From: Aulosira sp. ZfuVER01
GTDB taxonomy: Bacteria > Cyanobacteriota > Cyanobacteriia > Cyanobacteriales > Nostocaceae
Assembly (NCBI GenBank): GCA_034530615.2
Contig: JAVRCV020000008.1
Span: 96,001 to 160,000 of the forward strand
Reading direction: 5' to 3'
DNA length: 64,000 bases
This document shows, in pieces, positions 15,001-36,000 of this stretch (its first letter is position 1; every line of letters begins with the position of its first letter). The position numbers are program-made.

Positions 15001-18000
15001 TGGCGGCCTTGATGCTGTACTTGCCAATTTCCCAATTGCACCGCTCCTCGACTAGGAATTACTGCTCCATAAAGCATCCCTAGCGTTGTCGTTTTTCCGG
15101 CTCCATTTGGTCCTAAAAGACCGAGAATCTCTCTAGGATTCAGTGTGAAATTGACGCTTTGAACGACTGGAATATTTCCATAAAATTTCCATAGATCCCG
15201 AACCAATAATGCCATTGATTCTCTTTCATAATTTAATACTAGCTGTCTCATGGTAGGTTCCCGCTGAAGCTAGATTACCACACTCAAGTGCTTTAGATAC
15301 TTGCATCTACTCTTTCACCGAGCAGACAGTTATTTGATAGAACGAAGCATCACTAAAAACAGAGCGATCGTAAGCTCCAAATTTCTTTTCTATTTTGAAT
15401 CCATTGTATCTTAGCAAAGCTTCTAGTTCTTGGGGAAAGTATAATCGATAAGTTATTTCTTCAATCCGTTCTTGTTCTTCTCCAACCAACTTAAAAAATA
15501 ACTTCGTCTTATAAATTTGCTGGGTTAGATTCAATTCATTAGATGCAGTAACTACTACTGTACCTTCTCCATCTGGATTAGGGTAAATTGAATAGAGATT
15601 TTTTTTAGGATCGAACAACATATCTAAGCTGGCTTTTGTAGCAGGATTAAGCATATCAATAACAAACTTTCCTCCTGGTTTTAAATGTTTCTTTACACAA
15701 GCAAAACAAGCCTCAACCGCTTCTATATCTAAAAGATGCCAAATACAATTGATGGGAAAAATAATCAGGTTAAACTTCTGAGCTAGATCGAAGTTTTGGA
15801 TATCAGCTTTTATCCATTCAACTTGAGCAGACTTCTTTCTAGCTAGTTCTAGCATTGAGTCACCAATATCAATTCCAGTTACTTGGAATCCTTTGTTAGC
15901 TAATGGTATAGCTATTCTACCTGTTCCGCAGCTTAACTCTAAAATTGGATCGCCGTATTGACTAGCCATGTCCAACCAGAAAGGAATATCTAAAGTCGTG
16001 ACATTAGGAACTGGACAATAGTTTTCGTAAATCAAATCGTAATGCCTACCTTCATAATGAAGATATTCCTTTTCTGGAAATATGAAGGAATTTTCTTTTT
16101 CTCTGTCTTTTGAACTTGCGAAGCTTGCATTTACTCGTGTTTCTAATTCATTACTCATTTGCTTTGCCCAACTTGCATCTACGGCAATTACAGGGTTCTT
16201 TACCAAGATAGACATCATGAGCTTAGCCTATACCTGAGCAATCATCAATGTTATTCTTTATAATCAATTCATAAGTAATATTACTAGTAAGAACTTAATG
16301 TTAGGCGATCGCATCAAACCAGCATTACATATTCCATGCCCAGTTTGCTAAAGACAATATTTTATTGATATTAAATCCCGATTTTAGTTTCAAATTTTTA
16401 CTTTTACTGAAAAATTTAATGAGCTTTTTTTGCGTGTCCGTAATGTTACATAGTAGGTACAAGTTATTAATCATAATAACACCGGAAATTCTACTTATTT
16501 TTAATCTTATTAATTATGTGGAAAAATTCAAAATCCTTGATTTCCAGAATGTTTTGCTAGGATTTTAGCTAATTTTAAAGTAGAAAAAAGTTACCTAACT
16601 TAGATGATATTCCTGTTAGCTTTCTCAAGTTCATGGGAATAATATATACAAGGTTAGATAATTATTCATATTTCTAACATAAGTAGATCGGCGCAATGAA
16701 AATACTGGTGATGACGGTTATTCTTACAAAGTTCTGAGCGTAGGAAACCTCCGGTCAACGCCAGTTTGTTCAAGTCGGGAGACCCTTTCGGCAGTCGCTC
16801 ATGGGGGAAGCCCTTACGGGTTCTCCAGTTCCTTTATGCCGGGGAACCCGTCCACCGGACTGGCTCACCGCTACGCTAACACCACACGACTGGCTCGACT
16901 TTGCGCTTTGTCATTGGTAAGGATTTCAAGCCTATTTATATAAAGTACATAGCTTGATTAATTTCTACCGATTTACTTATTTGTGTTGTGCATATTTTCT
17001 GTTCACTCTTAGTCTAAATTATTTAATTTTGTAGACTAAATGGACTTCAAATGAAGGCTGAATTATCAAGTATGTAGACGCATAGCGGCTTGCCGCAGGC
17101 TGGTATGAAATTAACCCATAAATAAAAGGATGGGGCTAAAATTGCGGAAAAACTTAATTTTTTCGTCTAGACTTCTACAAGCTTAGTGTCCTCATTGTCC
17201 CCCTTCCTTGCATCCTTTATCGTTCATCTTTTGCAATTTGAATGATTATTTAGCTGAAAAATTAGCCTGAACGAGCAACTTTTTCGGACAAAGTAAGCAG
17301 CTTAATAATTTTCTGGGAACTTCAACATCGCTTATTCAATTTTCAGAGAAAGTCAAAATCCAATGTTCAGTTACTTTCAAGATGCATCTATCCACCAGCT
17401 GTTTGAAGTTCAGGTTGAGCAATCACCTGATTCTATAGCGGTAGTATTTGAGGGAATAGAAAGTCACCTTCAAGTTTCTCACAGCGCTAACAGCTTTCTT
17501 ACCTACAAAGAGTTAAATGTCCGTGCCAATCAATTAGCGCATTACTTAAAAACTCTAGGCGTAGGGCCAGAAGTATTGGTGGGTATTTGTGTAGAGCGTT
17601 CCCTTGAGATGATTGTCGGGGTGTTAGCCATCCTCAAAGCAGGTGGTGCTTACCTTCCTCTTGACTCTAACTATCCTAAAGAGCGTTTGGCGTTCATGCT
17701 GGAAGACTCTCAAATTTCTGTTTTAATAACTCAGCAACGTTTCCTGGAATCTCTCCCTAGCAACACAGCACAAATAATTTGCTTAGATACAGATTGGACT
17801 GGAATTGCCGAACACAGCCAACAAAATCTTATTTGCGAAGTCACTTCAAACAATCTCGCTTATGTGATTTACACATCTGGATCTACAGGTAAACCAAAAG
17901 GTGTTTTAGTTCCACACGCCGGAGTTGGCAATTTAGCCAGAGAACAGATCCGCATCTTCGATGTCCAACCAGATAGCCGGGTTCTGCAATTTGCTTCCTT

Positions 18001-33000: not shown

Positions 33001-36000
33001 TCAATATTTAGGCTCAGACCAACCTGTTTATGGATTGCAGGCACAAGGTATTGATGGTAAAACTCCTCCTCTAACTAAAGTTGAGGAAATGGCAACTCAA
33101 TATCTTGAAGCACTGCGCGTTGTCCAACCGCATGGGACTTACTTTCTCGGTGGGTCCTCTTTTGGCGGAACCATCGCCTATGAAATGGCACAGCAACTCC
33201 AAGCGCAAGGGGAAAAAGTAGGGTTGCTTTTCCTCATAGATACTCCTAGTCTCGGTCATATGCCGTCAGAAAATATTGAAGATGATGGCATCAAAATCAT
33301 GTCTTATGCCTTGGGTGTAGGTGCTAATGTTCCTGTATCTATAGAATATCTGCGACAACTAAGTACCGATGAGCAACTGCACTACTTTTTGCAGCAAGGA
33401 AAAACAGCGTTGAAAATGCCTGCTGATTTTGGCTTAAGCGAGTTGCATCTTTACTACAATCTGTTCAAAATCAACACTAAAGCGATGCGAAATTATATAC
33501 CGCAAGCTTATCCAGGTCGCGTCATCTTTTTTAAAGCCAGCGATCGCGATTCCTTCAACCCCCAAAACCCAGAACTCGGTTGGCAAGATTTGGCAATGGC
33601 AGGGTTAGAAATCCACGAAGTTCCTGGTAATCACATTACAATGAACTTCCCACCACAAGTCCAAGTTATGGCTAAGTTGTTAAGGATATATCTGGAGAGC
33701 GATCCACAAAAACAAAACTTTTAATACTAAGTAAAGGCTGGTTTACTCAGATCCCTGTTAGTCATTAAACCTCTTGCATTAACTCAATGTTTTGGATATC
33801 AAACCACAGATAAACACCGATATTTATCTGTGGTTCCTTCTGCGCGATCGCTCTCACCCCCGATCGTTTAACAAAGTTACAATTAGAAAATTGCCTTTCA
33901 AACCTGATTATTTCTCATCTGGAAACAGACGGGAGACTTTTATGACCCCAGCAACTATCGCCAAACCTCCAAAGGAATCACCCCTTTTGTTTGAGGGACT
34001 GACCTGGAGAGAATTCAAAGCCGTTGAGCAGTTGTTATACCGCCCAGGATATCGACTATCTTACCTGGATGGGATTTTGGAGATACGCAGAATGCCTGGA
34101 GAACCACACGAAACCGTTAAGGAAAGGATCGGCGCATTGTTGGAACTTTACCTGTTGATGGCAGGATTTGACTTTACTCCCACTGGCTCAATGACCTTGG
34201 AAAGTGAAGTAGGTGCGGTCAAGCGAGAAGCAGATAAATCTTATAAACTGGCTCCTGGTCGAGTGCGTCCCGATTTGGCGATTGAAGTGGTGTTTACTAG
34301 TGGGGGTATCGACAAGCTGGAGGCATACAAGCGATTGAAGATCAAGGAAGTATGGTTTTGGGAAGATGGCGTGTTAGAGGTATATCACCTCCGGGGAGAA
34401 GCCAATGCGCTTGACTATGAACAGATTTCCAGTAGTGAAGAAGTCAAAGGAATCGATCTGGATTTGTTGTTACGTTGCATCAATATGGTGAATCATGTTG
34501 ATGCTATTAAGACTTTTCAACAAGCGCTGGTGAAATAGCTGCGGATAAGTTGTCGCGTATTCTTAAATATTACCGAGCGATCGTATTGTTGGGGATGTGC
34601 CCGAAAGGCTTTATCTAGGCAAAGCGAAAGGGGAAAAGGGTAAAGAGTGATTTTAAATCTTTATCCTTTTCCCTTTATCCCTAATCTCCACTCCCTGAGG
34701 TCGTGGGGCCCCGAGTTCCCCCTTAACCGAACCGCATTGGAGGCAGGTTGACAAAAATAATGAATTATTAATTTTCTCGCCCGATCGCTAATCATCTAAC
34801 TCAATATCACTGTCGTCATCATCATGATCGTAAGGCAGATCGTCAAGATCGATCATCTCTGAAATTTCTTCTACTTGAGCTAGATACTCCGAATCTTGCG
34901 TTTCACGTGCTATTAAGCGACCATTTGACTTTAGCCATTCTATAAGAACAAATTCATTACTTGAACGAATGACAGTGGCTCGCTGGTTACGAGGTGCTTC
35001 ATGCAAAGGGCCATTATTCATAAAAATCTCACTTTGAATGGGGAATAACTGAAGTCGTCCAAGATTTGGTGTATTTAGAAAAATGAAAGCTTTAAATAGC
35101 AAGCATTTCAAATTTTCCCTCTGGATCTGCCTAGTTTGGACTAATTCCTAAGCAAGCTGTTCTATAGTATTCCCCTAAGGGAACTTTTGCCAGAAGCATC
35201 TCTCTAAATTTTTCTAATTCTTTTAAAATACTATCTCCTAGTTATATTGGCTTCTAATTTGAGCAAACTTACTGCTATCAAATTTAACGACGAAGTAATA
35301 TATTTACACAGCAAAGGCAATTATGTCTACTACCTCATCTATGGCGCAAAGTTGATAGCTTTATGCCGTCAGCTGTAATTTATTATCAGGTTAATTTTTA
35401 CTTAAAATATTCGTAATTAATAGAACTTATATTTTAAAAACCTGACATATTAATCATATCTTTTATTTTAAACCATCTTGTCAAAAAAGTACTGATTTTA
35501 ATAATGGATATAGCTTTTTTGAGAATGCATAGTTAGGAATAGGTTACAAGTACCGGAATCTGGTTTCATTTTTGAAAAAGGATTTGCCTTGAAAATACCT
35601 GTATAATTTCCAACTTTGCTACTGATAACAATGGGATATCCTTCAGTAGTCTTAAAGATACTTAATGAAACTTGATAGAAGGGAAAGCTAGATTAGAAGC
35701 AAATGTCCTTTAAATACTGAAGATTAGCTCTGTTTTTTGTGATTTTGAAACTGAAATATGACAGTATGGCTGCTAAAAAACTGACTAATTCTGACAAACA
35801 CGTTGTTGTCGATGCAGAGCGACAACAAGGCAAAAATAAAAATAAGAGCATAGCTAGTAAAGCAACGCCAATCCCAAACATATCCTATAGTGTTGTCCAT
35901 GCTATTCGGGGACGAATTCGTTTTCGGATTCCTCGGTTAGCCAAAGATTCTGAGTATGCCAATAAACTCCAGCGATTGATAGAATCAGATGCTAGGATTA

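What a model noticed while it worked through the whole genome (the two positions that open the first line are those of the whole stretch)
17363..33724. PilZ domains inserted inside two NRPS adenylation domains: a new kind of interrupted A domain
In the hybrid NRPS-PKS cluster g00804-g00806 two of the three adenylation domains (g00804 module 2, PilZ at aa 2029-2112; g00805, PilZ at aa 994-1079) carry a ~110-residue PilZ beta-barrel inserted in the small C-terminal A subdomain, after the strand ..DKRLVAY(I/V)V that follows core motif A8 (QVKIRGFRIELGEIE) and before A9 (LPxYMxP), the site where methyltransferase domains sit in known interrupted A domains. The insert keeps the PilZ DxSxxG motif (TEDISxGG) but only one Arg of RxxxR, so it may sense c-di-GMP or another ligand, or act as a docking module. 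The same insertion occurs in at least 131 A domains of 79 NRPS proteins, nearly all of filamentous cyanobacteria: an undescribed NRPS ar [...]
Evidence so far: pfam.tsv: PilZ PF07238 in g00804 (2.7e-8, 32.7 bits) and g00805 (3.8e-8, 32.2 bits), over the gathering cut, between AMP-binding and PP-binding. Alignment of the two inserts with flanking A8/A9/A10 motifs. Search with g00805 aa 975-1100: 79 proteins at E<=1e-5, 78 of 79 with precomputed PF07238 beside PF00501/PF00550; 131 insert segments in these 79 proteins with near-invariant R, C and T-E-D-I-S-x-x-G. AF2 model of g00805 aa 880-1165 (pLDDT 71; 80-92 in the insert): residues 61-108 + 210-265 superpose on NRPS A subdomains (9bfd Z 14.9, 1amu 14.9, methyltransferase-interrupted TioS 5wmm Z 14.7), residues 108-210 on PilZ domains (Alg44 with c-di-GMP 4rt0 Z 11.2, 103 aligned; MotI 5vx6 11.0; M [...]
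(Added by a program. Inside this text positions count along the whole contig: contig position 96,001 is position 1 of the stretch shown here. "Call 12" and the like, gene names such as g00115 and contig names such as C1 are that model's own, and its searches are not shown. The text may have been shortened before it was handed on; [...] marks where a part breaks off. The agent that wrote the report below was given it as the finding of a first reader that could run no searches.)

Follow-up and report, generated by a model that had tools for sequence, protein, structure and literature searches.

The report
PilZ barrels inside two NRPS adenylation domains
Two neighbouring peptide-assembly modules each carry a small PilZ-type receptor domain spliced into the moving lid of their amino-acid-loading domain, a design absent from the papers I searched; this version has only half of the usual c-di-GMP binding site, so what it senses is still open.

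Summary
In g00804 module 2 and in g00805, about 107 residues are inserted between the strand after core motif a8 and motif a9. They score over Pfam's PilZ cut-off and replace about one residue of LgrA. They model as a PilZ barrel (Z 11.7-13.4 to MotI, MrkH, Alg44, YcgR, BcsA), and the flanks keep the Asub fold.

Module 1 of the same gene has a methyltransferase at the same site.

The insert is under purifying selection (dN/dS 0.08-0.37).

This subfamily is a single barrel with half a site:
- The last Arg and [D/N]hSxxG are near-invariant.
- The first Arg of RxxxR is present in 0 of 97 segments.

Relatives with two adjacent barrels at the same site often carry a full RRxxxR in the second barrel, including in cyanobacteria.

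I also found free-standing half-Asub+PilZ genes.

No searched or opened paper describes this architecture. This scan had already noted PilZ-in-A-domain on other DNA, in at least 8 genomes.

The function is untested. I favour a lid-mounted regulatory module with non-canonical ligand binding (0.35) over a pure protein adaptor (0.30).

The parts
17363..24292 (+). g00804, NRPS: A(methyltransferase-interrupted)-T-C-A(PilZ-interrupted)-T
   Evidence: ORF, translation, Pfam domains
18773..20290 (+). Module 1 a8-a9 insertion carrying a methyltransferase (aa 471-976). It sits in the same loop as the PilZ inserts.
   Evidence: Strand RLIAYVV ends at nt 18772 and a9 LPDYMMP starts at nt 20291. Methyltransf_12/25/11 match aa 546-668.
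23426..23767 (+). PilZ insert of g00804 module 2 (family-profile match; Pfam PilZ covers 23447-23698). Conserved Arg at 23450-23452; TEDISSSG at 23513-23536.
   Evidence: Pfam, six-frame profile match 166.3 bits, motif positions
24304..28098 (+). g00805, NRPS: C-A(PilZ-interrupted)-T
27259..27603 (+). PilZ insert of g00805 (family-profile match). The insertion proper, relative to LgrA, is 27268-27588. Pfam PilZ covers 27283-27540. Arg994 is at 27283-27285; TEDISVGG is at 27346-27369.
   Evidence: The model residues covering this stretch match PilZ structures at Z 11.7-13.4.
27127..27171 (+). Core motif a8 (QVKIRGFRIELGEIE) of the g00805 A domain
27634..27708 (+). Core motifs a9 (LPDYMMP) and a10 (PNGKVD, catalytic Lys kept) of the g00805 A domain
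28010..33724 (+). g00806, PKS: KS-AT-KR-ACP-TE. The ORF runs from TTG at 28010; an ATG at 28091 overlaps the end of g00805.
13528..16218 (-). Likely cluster accessories: a class I methyltransferase (15307-16218) and an ABC-2 exporter, with ATPase 14307-15251 and permease 13528-14310
   Evidence: Pfam. The same kinds of genes lie next to related clusters L001, L018, L021, L025 and L039. That they belong to the cluster is inferred.

Best explanation
Shown:
- Two consecutive NRPS modules carry a roughly 107-residue PilZ-fold beta-barrel in the surface loop between the strand after a8 and the helix bearing a9. This loop is in the small C-terminal subdomain (Asub), the lid that rotates between the adenylation and thiolation states.
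- Both A domains keep a1-a10, including the a10 Lys, so they should still load amino acids.
- The barrel has no catalytic family signature and evolves under purifying selection.
- It belongs to a single-barrel subfamily. Its most conserved surface residues are those of the c-di-GMP site of canonical PilZ domains: the last Arg of RxxxR, and T-E-D-h-S-x-x-G. The first Arg is always missing.

Inferred (my committed reading, about one chance in three):
- The barrel is a regulatory module riding on the lid. It uses the retained half-site to bind a guanine-nucleotide messenger, most likely c-di-GMP, in a non-canonical way.
- Binding is either weak or shared between two barrels. The second barrel could come from the neighbouring module, from the duplicated unit in Microcoleus, or from the second barrel of the tandem relatives.
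- An occupied or paired barrel would restrain lid rotation or module coupling. That would gate the assembly line after translation.
For: - Fold: model residues 83-179 match c-di-GMP-binding PilZ domains. MotI 5vx6 scores Z 13.4 (rmsd 1.9, 94 aligned), CeSA 4i86 13.2, MrkH 5ejl 13.2, Alg44 4rt0 13.0, YcgR 5y6f 12.7 and BcsA 4p00 11.7. The flanks match Asub: 5n9w Z 15.8 and TioS 5wmm Z 15.0.
- Motif mapping: a profile-profile alignment to canonical stand-alone PilZ relatives has probability 99.4% and E 2.3e-21. It places Arg994 on the last R of RxxxR and TEDISxGG on TxDxSxGG.
- Conservation in 97 distinct segments: R 97/97, D 97/97, S 95/97, G 96/97.
- Selection: dN/dS of the insert is 0.08-0.37 in 10 ortholog pairs. 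In the flanks it is 0.04-0.25 for the 18 of 20 flank values that could be computed.
- Non-binding PilZ lineages are described as having lost both motifs (Galperin and Chou preprint 10.1101/814665, passages seen).
- Sister architectures at the same site carry a full RRxxxR plus [D/N]xSxxG in a second barrel: 19 of 42 second barrels among the representatives, and cyanobacterial L045.
- Two barrels in one locus are common. Of 45 sources, 23 have inserts in two different A domains and 4 more have the 0.7-kb duplication pair. The upstream and downstream inserts form separate old clades.
- Free-standing half-Asub+PilZ genes keep R, C and TEDISxxG while a9 and a10 decay.
- The genome has 22 GGDEF matches but only 3 PilZ matches. 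One is a BcsA-like synthase with a canonical RSAHR...NISETG; the other two are in this NRPS.
Against: - The first Arg of RxxxR is absent in 0 of 97 subfamily segments. Among single-barrel representatives, 73 of 85 keep only the last Arg. In characterised PilZ receptors both arginines matter; this is established knowledge, recalled, and not tested here.
- GGDEF genes are not enriched nearby. I found 1 hit (L035) in 45 sources totalling about 731 kb, against roughly 2 expected from the genome's own density. EAL and HD-GYP genes were not scanned.
- By sequence, the nearest solved chains are the non-binding adaptor PilZ proteins of Xanthomonas (3dsg, 3cnr, 4f48, 7lkq; E 0.002-0.005). The match covers the barrel's C-terminal two thirds only.
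- Some clusters have a single insert within 10 kb on each side (L018, L023, L030, L031, L033). Pairing is therefore not obligatory.
- No binding or enzyme data exist.
Confidence: 0.35

Rival explanations
1. Ligand-independent protein-protein adaptor. The barrel is a docking surface on the lid. It could recruit a trans-acting partner (a tailoring enzyme, the ABC-2 exporter ATPase, or another module's barrel), much as the Xanthomonas PilZ protein bridges FimX and PilB without binding c-di-GMP itself.
For: - The RxxxR motif is incomplete in every member.
- The best sequence matches among solved chains are the non-binding adaptor PilZ proteins, at E 0.002-0.005.
- An ABC-2 ATPase and/or permease gene recurs beside related clusters: the window, L001, L021, L025 and L039. 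Methyltransferases recur as well.
- Inserts often come in pairs that are inherited together.
- The free-standing form is kept outside any NRPS.
Against: - The adaptor-type PilZ proteins lost both motifs (10.1101/814665). Here D-h-S-x-x-G and the last Arg are near-invariant.
- No single partner gene is shared by all 15 loci examined beside the window.
- The match to adaptor PilZ excludes the motif region.
Confidence: 0.3
2. An ordinary, self-sufficient c-di-GMP receptor. Each single barrel binds c-di-GMP with normal affinity despite the missing first Arg, and switches its A domain.
For: - The fold and the second motif match canonical receptors.
- Relatives at the same site have complete motifs.
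- The genome has many GGDEF genes and few PilZ domains.
Against: - The first Arg is present in 0 of 97 segments. Position -4 is Leu, Val or Gln in 92 of 97, and Pro or His in the window.
- The Pfam match starts at profile position 6-7, after the Arg-rich start. The genome's BcsA PilZ matches from position 1.
Confidence: 0.1
3. A structural passenger. It would be a relic of a once-functional sensor, now kept only because deleting it would misfold Asub, with no signalling or docking role.
For: - The a8-a9 loop tolerates large inserts (module 1 methyltransferase; TioS).
- Half of the ligand site is gone.
- One member (PCC 7702, L016/P0053) shows a decayed barrel that no longer scores as PilZ.
Against: - dN/dS in the insert is as low as in the catalytic flanks.
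- The invariant residues cluster in the former ligand site rather than only in the core.
- Both paralogues have been kept as separate clades since before the divergence of the Aerosakkonema and Nostocales clusters.
- The free-standing copies keep the site while the A-domain motifs decay.
Confidence: 0.15
4. Chance Pfam hit or annotation artefact.
For: The Pfam scores are modest (34.0 and 33.6 bits).
Against: Both scores are over the cut-off. hhalign gives 99.4% and the fold matches reach Z 13. In the Atlas, 29 of 30 feature hits share one family set, and the top rows are PilZ clusters. There are 97 conserved segments and a clean insertion boundary.
Confidence: 0.01

Closest known systems
Interrupted adenylation domains of the a8-a9 type (e.g. 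TioS A-M-A, PDB 5wmm; families of Lundy, Mori and Garneau-Tsodikova 2020, PMC8341866)
   Same: - A foreign domain sits in the same Asub loop between a8 and a9, and the A domain is otherwise intact.
- Module 1 of g00804 is a classical member with a methyltransferase.
   Different: - The described inserts are catalytic: methyltransferase, ketoreductase, oxidase, monooxygenase (passages of PMC11355689 and of PMC8097286).
- Here the insert is a roughly 107-residue non-catalytic receptor-type barrel.
- 'PilZ' occurs 0 times in the main text and the held supplement of PMC8341866.
Canonical PilZ c-di-GMP receptors (Alg44 4rt0, YcgR 5y6f, MotI 5vx6, MrkH 5ejl, BcsA 4p00)
   Same: - The fold matches at Z 11.7-13.4.
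- [D/N]hSxxG and the last Arg, followed by the h-x-h pattern, are shared.
   Different: - The first Arg of RxxxR is missing in all 97 segments.
- The N-terminus is not a free loop. It is tethered to the Asub strand through a conserved S-N-L-x-P-E-R linker.
Non-binding adaptor PilZ of Xanthomonas (XC1028/XAC1133; 3dsg, 3cnr, 4f48, 7lkq)
   Same: - These are the best sequence matches among solved chains, E 0.002-0.005 over profile positions 36-102.
- They also lack a complete RxxxR.
   Different: Those proteins lack both motifs and have a remodelled N-terminal part (10.1101/814665). The insert keeps the second motif and a full barrel.
Tandem-PilZ interrupted A domains (YcgR-like pair at the same a8-a9 site; found only in databases)
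   Same: - Same insertion site and the same junction sequences.
- The first barrel resembles the window's barrel.
   Different: - A second barrel follows, preceded by a linker such as DLRRxExRVP that completes RRxxxR. This holds for 19 of 42 second barrels and for L045.
- The window has single barrels only.

Membership tests
Interrupted A domain (a8-a9 type) | A domain with its core motifs intact on both sides of the insert | tested here: met
   AMP-binding profile matched 1-384. a8, a9 and a10 are present, with the a10 Lys, in both domains.
Interrupted A domain (a8-a9 type) | The insert lies between a8 and a9 | tested here: met
   The LgrA alignment breaks at query 109/217. There are 123 residues between the a8 strand and a9. 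This is the same loop that holds the methyltransferase of module 1.
Interrupted A domain (a8-a9 type) | The insert is the catalytic portion of an auxiliary domain (M, KR, Ox, MOx) | tested here: not met
   The insert is a PilZ barrel. The definition comes from passages of PMC8341866 (abstract), PMC11355689 and PMC8097286.
Canonical c-di-GMP-binding PilZ domain | PilZ beta-barrel fold | tested here: met
   Z 11.7-13.4, rmsd 1.8-3.2 over 91-102 residues, to eight c-di-GMP-related PilZ structures
Canonical c-di-GMP-binding PilZ domain | [D/N]hSxxG motif | tested here: met
   TEDISSSG and TEDISVGG. D 97/97, S 95/97, G 96/97. Aligned to the motif of canonical relatives.
Canonical c-di-GMP-binding PilZ domain | RxxxR motif (both arginines) | tested here: not met
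   The last Arg is present in 97/97. The residue four before it is L71, V16 or Q5, and never R. The window has P and H there. hhalign places a variable column on the first R.
Canonical c-di-GMP-binding PilZ domain | Binds c-di-GMP | not testable with these tools
Non-binding adaptor PilZ (Xanthomonas PilZ type) | Both c-di-GMP motifs lost | tested here: not met
   The second motif is near-invariant. The family description comes from 10.1101/814665.
Non-binding adaptor PilZ (Xanthomonas PilZ type) | Sequence relatedness | tested here: inconclusive
   E 0.002-0.005 over two thirds of the barrel
YcgR-like two-barrel receptor | Two adjacent barrels with RxxxR in the linker between them | tested here: not met
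   Each window A domain has one barrel. The feature is met in relatives.

The most novel reading that the evidence does not exclude
Each single barrel is half of a c-di-GMP site. One two-fold symmetric c-di-GMP, or an intercalated pair, would be clamped between the barrels of two neighbouring modules (here g00804 module 2 and g00805). The second messenger would then physically couple or uncouple consecutive NRPS modules, switching natural-product assembly after translation. The tandem-barrel inserts, the Microcoleus duplication and the free-standing half-Asub+PilZ proteins would be other ways of supplying the second half.
Probability: 0.12. Interest if true: 0.9.

Novelty: new variant of a known kind. 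Interest (0 to 1): 0.65.

Why it matters
Interrupted A domains are known as a way to add a catalytic step. A non-catalytic, receptor-type domain on the mobile lid would instead be a built-in control or docking element. If it responds to c-di-GMP or a related nucleotide, it would be a direct post-translational link between second-messenger signalling and an assembly line. I know of no such link, and none turned up in the literature I searched.

The family offers natural comparison sets: single half-site barrels, tandem barrels with full motifs, duplicated units and free-standing forms. Together these make the question directly testable. For NRPS engineering, it is a small, well-folded insert tolerated in the a8-a9 loop of A domains with different predicted substrates.

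Tried and rejected
- **Complex prediction.** I submitted the two inserts plus c-di-GMP.
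- **RNA evidence.** No RNA holder was listed for window 22800-28100. The only full holders are three DNA runs that may be the source sample. I did not lay reads. This says nothing about expression.
- **Foldseek on the whole model.** It returned only A domains. The PilZ matches appeared with VIA-align.
- **GGDEF neighbourhood.** I built a profile from 18 GGDEF domains of this genome and found one hit (L035) in 45 sources. EAL and HD-GYP were not scanned, and the profile is home-made.
- **Conserved trans partner.** Pfam on 47 small ORFs from 15 loci showed recurring ABC-2 exporter and methyltransferase genes, but no gene common to all.
- **Barrel tree.** A tree of barrels from the representative set placed most single inserts in one large clade (support 0.77-0.79) apart from most tandem barrels. 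It does not resolve whether single inserts derive from tandem ones or the reverse.
- **NCBIfam.** There is no model for the insert. The only hits are sub-threshold: TIGR02266, and more weakly NF047488.
- **Earlier-findings look-up by sequence.** It returned nothing.
- **Literature.** Seven full-text searches and passages of five papers found no description. Subscription-journal papers, for example Labby et al. 2015, were not searchable.
- **Considered and rejected: the insert as an artefact of the dispersed repeats found in these genes.** The repeats lie elsewhere, and the insert is conserved across genera.

Full report
**What is there**

The region holds three co-directional genes. Pfam gives these architectures:
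- g00804: A-T-C-A-T
- g00805: C-A-T
- g00806: KS-AT-KR-ACP-TE

PilZ (PF07238) matches g00804 aa 2029-2112 (34.0 bits) and g00805 aa 994-1079 (33.6 bits). The cut-off is 22.5 bits. Each match lies between the two halves of AMP-binding_C.

A phmmer search of g00805 aa 880-1165 against PDB sequences aligns residues 35-109 to LgrA 1593-1667 and residues 217-285 to LgrA 1669-1736. So aa 989-1095 is a clean insertion that replaces about one residue.

Motif positions show 123 residues between the strand R-L-x-A-Y-x-V and a9 in both PilZ-bearing domains. The same gap is 506 residues in module 1, where methyltransferase families match. All three A domains of this cluster are therefore interrupted in the same loop, one by a methyltransferase and two by PilZ. 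Motifs a8, a9 and a10, including the a10 Lys, are intact.

**Fold**

I built an AF2 model of aa 911-1151 on a 27-row alignment taken from the window and fetched loci. It has pLDDT 85.7 and pTM 0.64, with 93-96 in the insert.

VIA-align against 48,161 chains gave two sets of matches:
- The flanks superpose on A-domain C-terminal subdomains: 5n9w Z 15.8 (rmsd 1.6, 104 residues), 9bfd 15.6, 1amu 15.3, and methyltransferase-interrupted TioS 5wmm 15.0.
- Residues 83-179 superpose on PilZ domains: MotI 5vx6 13.4, CeSA 4i86 13.2, MrkH 5ejl 13.2, Alg44 with c-di-GMP 4rt0 13.0, YcgR 5y6f 12.7, PP4397 3kyf 12.2 and BcsA 4p00 11.7.

Foldseek on the whole model listed only A domains. In the protein atlas, 29 of 30 feature hits share one family set, and the top rows are PilZ clusters.

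**Binding motifs**

I examined 97 distinct insert segments from 60 proteins.
- Invariant or nearly so: the Arg that opens strand 1 (97/97), C1001 (96/97), T-E-D-h-S-x-x-G (D 97/97, S 95/97, G 96/97), P1044, G1054, W1058 and the returning linker G-F-L-K-x-L-Q-R.
- The residue four before the Arg is L (71), V (16) or Q (5), and never R. The window has P and H at that position.

A profile-profile alignment to seven canonical stand-alone PilZ relatives has probability 99.4% and E 2.3e-21. It places the conserved Arg on the last R of RxxxR and TEDISxGG on the second motif. The subfamily therefore has a half-site.

The same genome provides a canonical control. Its BcsA-like synthase has R-S-A-H-R followed by N-I-S-E-T-G, and it matches Pfam PilZ from profile position 1. 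The NRPS inserts match only from position 6-7.

**Selection**

Nei-Gojobori dN/dS was computed against five orthologous clusters (Mojavia, Nostoc T09, NIES-4103, Amazonocrinis, Aerosakkonema). The insert gives 0.08-0.37. The Asub flanks give 0.04-0.25 where dS could be computed, which is 18 of 20 flank values. The barrel is not a neutral spacer.

**Distribution of the subfamily**

- Close relatives are named Microcoleus, Nostoc, Mojavia, Kamptonema, Phormidium, Oscillatoria nigro-viridis PCC 7112, Argonema and Aerosakkonema.
- A pattern scan of one genome per species gave 44 loci. Most are cyanobacterial, but 7 are in Candidatus Parabeggiatoa MAGs.
- In an even sample of the phylum, 21 of 401 genomes (13 of 155 genera) have a match at E<=1e-15.
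- The matches are concentrated in one family (12 of 25).
- They are rare in the window's own family (1 of 45 besides the window).
- The one other genome of the same genus has no match.
- This patchiness fits inheritance with the gene cluster rather than with the species.

**The wider family**

A profile of ten inserts, searched against 1.84 billion cluster representatives, found 327 proteins at E<=1e-3, 120 at <=1e-10 and 41 at <=1e-30.

I analysed the best 150; 149 gave domain hits in my re-scan.
- 103 of the 149 carry at least one A-domain core motif by simple patterns, and 115 are 500 aa or longer.
- Many have two adjacent barrels between a8 and a9, and one has three (P0064).
- A complete RxxxR occurs in 8 of 85 single barrels, 11 of 41 first barrels, 19 of 42 second barrels and 9 of 16 short stand-alone proteins.
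- The second barrels typically read D-L-R-R-x-E-x-R-V-P ... T-E-N-I-S-x-G-G, which is the YcgR-like arrangement.
- Named examples come from Acidobacteriota and Chloroflexota MAGs. Cyanobacterial genomes have the tandem form too (L045, L046, L047).

A tree of barrel cores puts most single inserts in one clade, but the order of events is unresolved.

**Pairs**

I counted L036's two pieces as one insert split by a stop codon. Of 45 sources:
- 23 have inserts in two different A domains 3-7 kb apart.
- 4 more have only a 0.7-kb duplication pair.
- 18 have one insert. Of these, L018, L023, L030, L031 and L033 have full 10-kb flanks.

In the window-type clusters the upstream and downstream inserts form two separate clades. 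The pair is therefore old and has not been homogenised. The two window inserts are 48% identical to each other.

**Context**

- The window contains no GGDEF gene. A profile built from 18 of this genome's GGDEF domains found one hit (L035) in about 731 kb of family loci plus the window. About 2 would be expected from 22 matches in 8.03 Mb.
- Recurrent neighbours are ABC-2 exporter genes and methyltransferases.
- The genome has only three PilZ matches, two of them in this NRPS, against 22 GGDEF matches.

**Literature**

- The classification of interrupted A domains (PMC8341866; abstract, passages and the held supplement) covers methyltransferase inserts only and never mentions PilZ.
- A 2024 review and a 2021 recombination study list M, KR, Ox and monooxygenase inserts (passages).
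- Two PilZ surveys (10.1101/814665 and 10.1101/2020.02.11.943704) contain no occurrence of adenylation, peptide synthetase or NRPS terms.
- Full-text searches combining PilZ with NRPS terms found nothing relevant.
- Papers outside the held library could not be searched.
- This scan's own notes record PilZ inside A domains in at least 8 other genomes. I checked their claims of tandem forms and a wide family myself.

**Mechanism**

Shown: a conserved, selected, non-catalytic PilZ barrel sits on the mobile lid of two active-looking A domains.

Inferred: because the most conserved surface is the former c-di-GMP site, that face is the working face.

I give 0.35 to non-canonical nucleotide binding, either weak or shared between two barrels, that restrains lid movement or module coupling. 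The rivals are:
- a ligand-independent adaptor, 0.30
- a structural passenger, 0.15
- a self-sufficient canonical receptor, 0.10

The complex prediction that could have probed barrel pairing was unavailable.

**Verdict**

This is a new variant of the interrupted A domain. Its function is unproven, and this particular subfamily lacks half of the canonical site. Interest 0.65.

Noticed in passing
L020 8680-9246 and L032 4329-4961 (Candidatus Parabeggiatoa MAGs); also L037; proteins P0084, P0089, P0097, P0126, P0138: There are free-standing small genes (188-331 aa) made of the second half of a8, the Asub strand, one or two PilZ barrels, and degenerate a9/a10 (the a10 Lys is often lost). In L020 and L032 the gene sits inside the dTDP-rhamnose operon, in the order rmlA-rmlC-[gene]-rmlD. 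The barrel's conserved R, C and TEDISxxG are kept. The tandem versions carry a full RRxxxR.
   Followed up: partly
P0020, P0004, P0028, P0062; loci L009, L013, L014, L015, L022, L024: Microcoleus and Argonema synthetases carry a tandem duplication of a 236-residue unit: second half of a8, PilZ, a9, a10 and the start of the T domain. The first copy ends in a T-domain start without the GGHS serine. The second copy then continues into a complete T domain. One module therefore has two lid-like units and two barrels.
   Followed up: partly
window 19990-20260, 26830-27060, 31150-31350 (also about 18490-18570): The odd low-complexity, G+C-rich peptide stretches inside g00804, g00805 and g00806 are in-frame insertions of short dispersed repeats of 40-90 bp. 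Each queried stretch gives 10 to 40 blastn hits (its own copy included) in the genome. One lies between a6 and a7 of the g00805 A domain.
   Followed up: partly
window 17363-33724: I read the specificity-conferring positions from motif anchors that I recalled; no tool checked them. They suggest Tyr (module 1, with the methyltransferase), Thr (module 2) and Phe (g00805), followed by one malonate extension with ketoreduction and release. The product would be a methylated tripeptide ending in a statine-like gamma-amino-beta-hydroxy acid. The two PilZ-bearing domains have different predicted substrates.
   Followed up: no
L016 10001-10339 (cyanobacterium PCC 7702; protein P0053): This is a decayed member. 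The second insert has a disrupted second motif, an extra stretch and a changed linker, and it no longer scores as Pfam PilZ. In L016 the open frame holding this second insert is only 821 aa, as if the gene were broken.
   Followed up: no
L036 493-831 (Candidatus Parabeggiatoa communis): A stop codon lies inside the PilZ insert of an NRPS gene. It may be a pseudogene or an assembly error.
   Followed up: no
genome contig C52 271528-271815 (locus L048 1196-3802): The only other PilZ match in the 8.03-Mb genome is in a BcsA-like cellulose synthase next to a BcsB-like gene. It has canonical RxxxR and NxSxxG motifs. The genome has 22 GGDEF matches.
   Followed up: yes
window 4565-10156 and 10619-13309: Upstream of the cluster lie two large genes. 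One is an 1863-aa protein combining a Ser/Thr kinase, an AAA ATPase, GAF and histidine-kinase domains. The other is an 896-aa fusion of a DNA methylase with an Mrr-type endonuclease domain.
   Followed up: no
L002 471-4559: The Microcoleus asticus cluster with two PilZ-bearing A domains is flanked by genes for an HMGL-like synthase, an isopropylmalate-dehydrogenase-like enzyme and an aconitase-like enzyme, plus an O-methyltransferase. From recall, this looks like a homo-amino-acid supply pathway.
   Followed up: no
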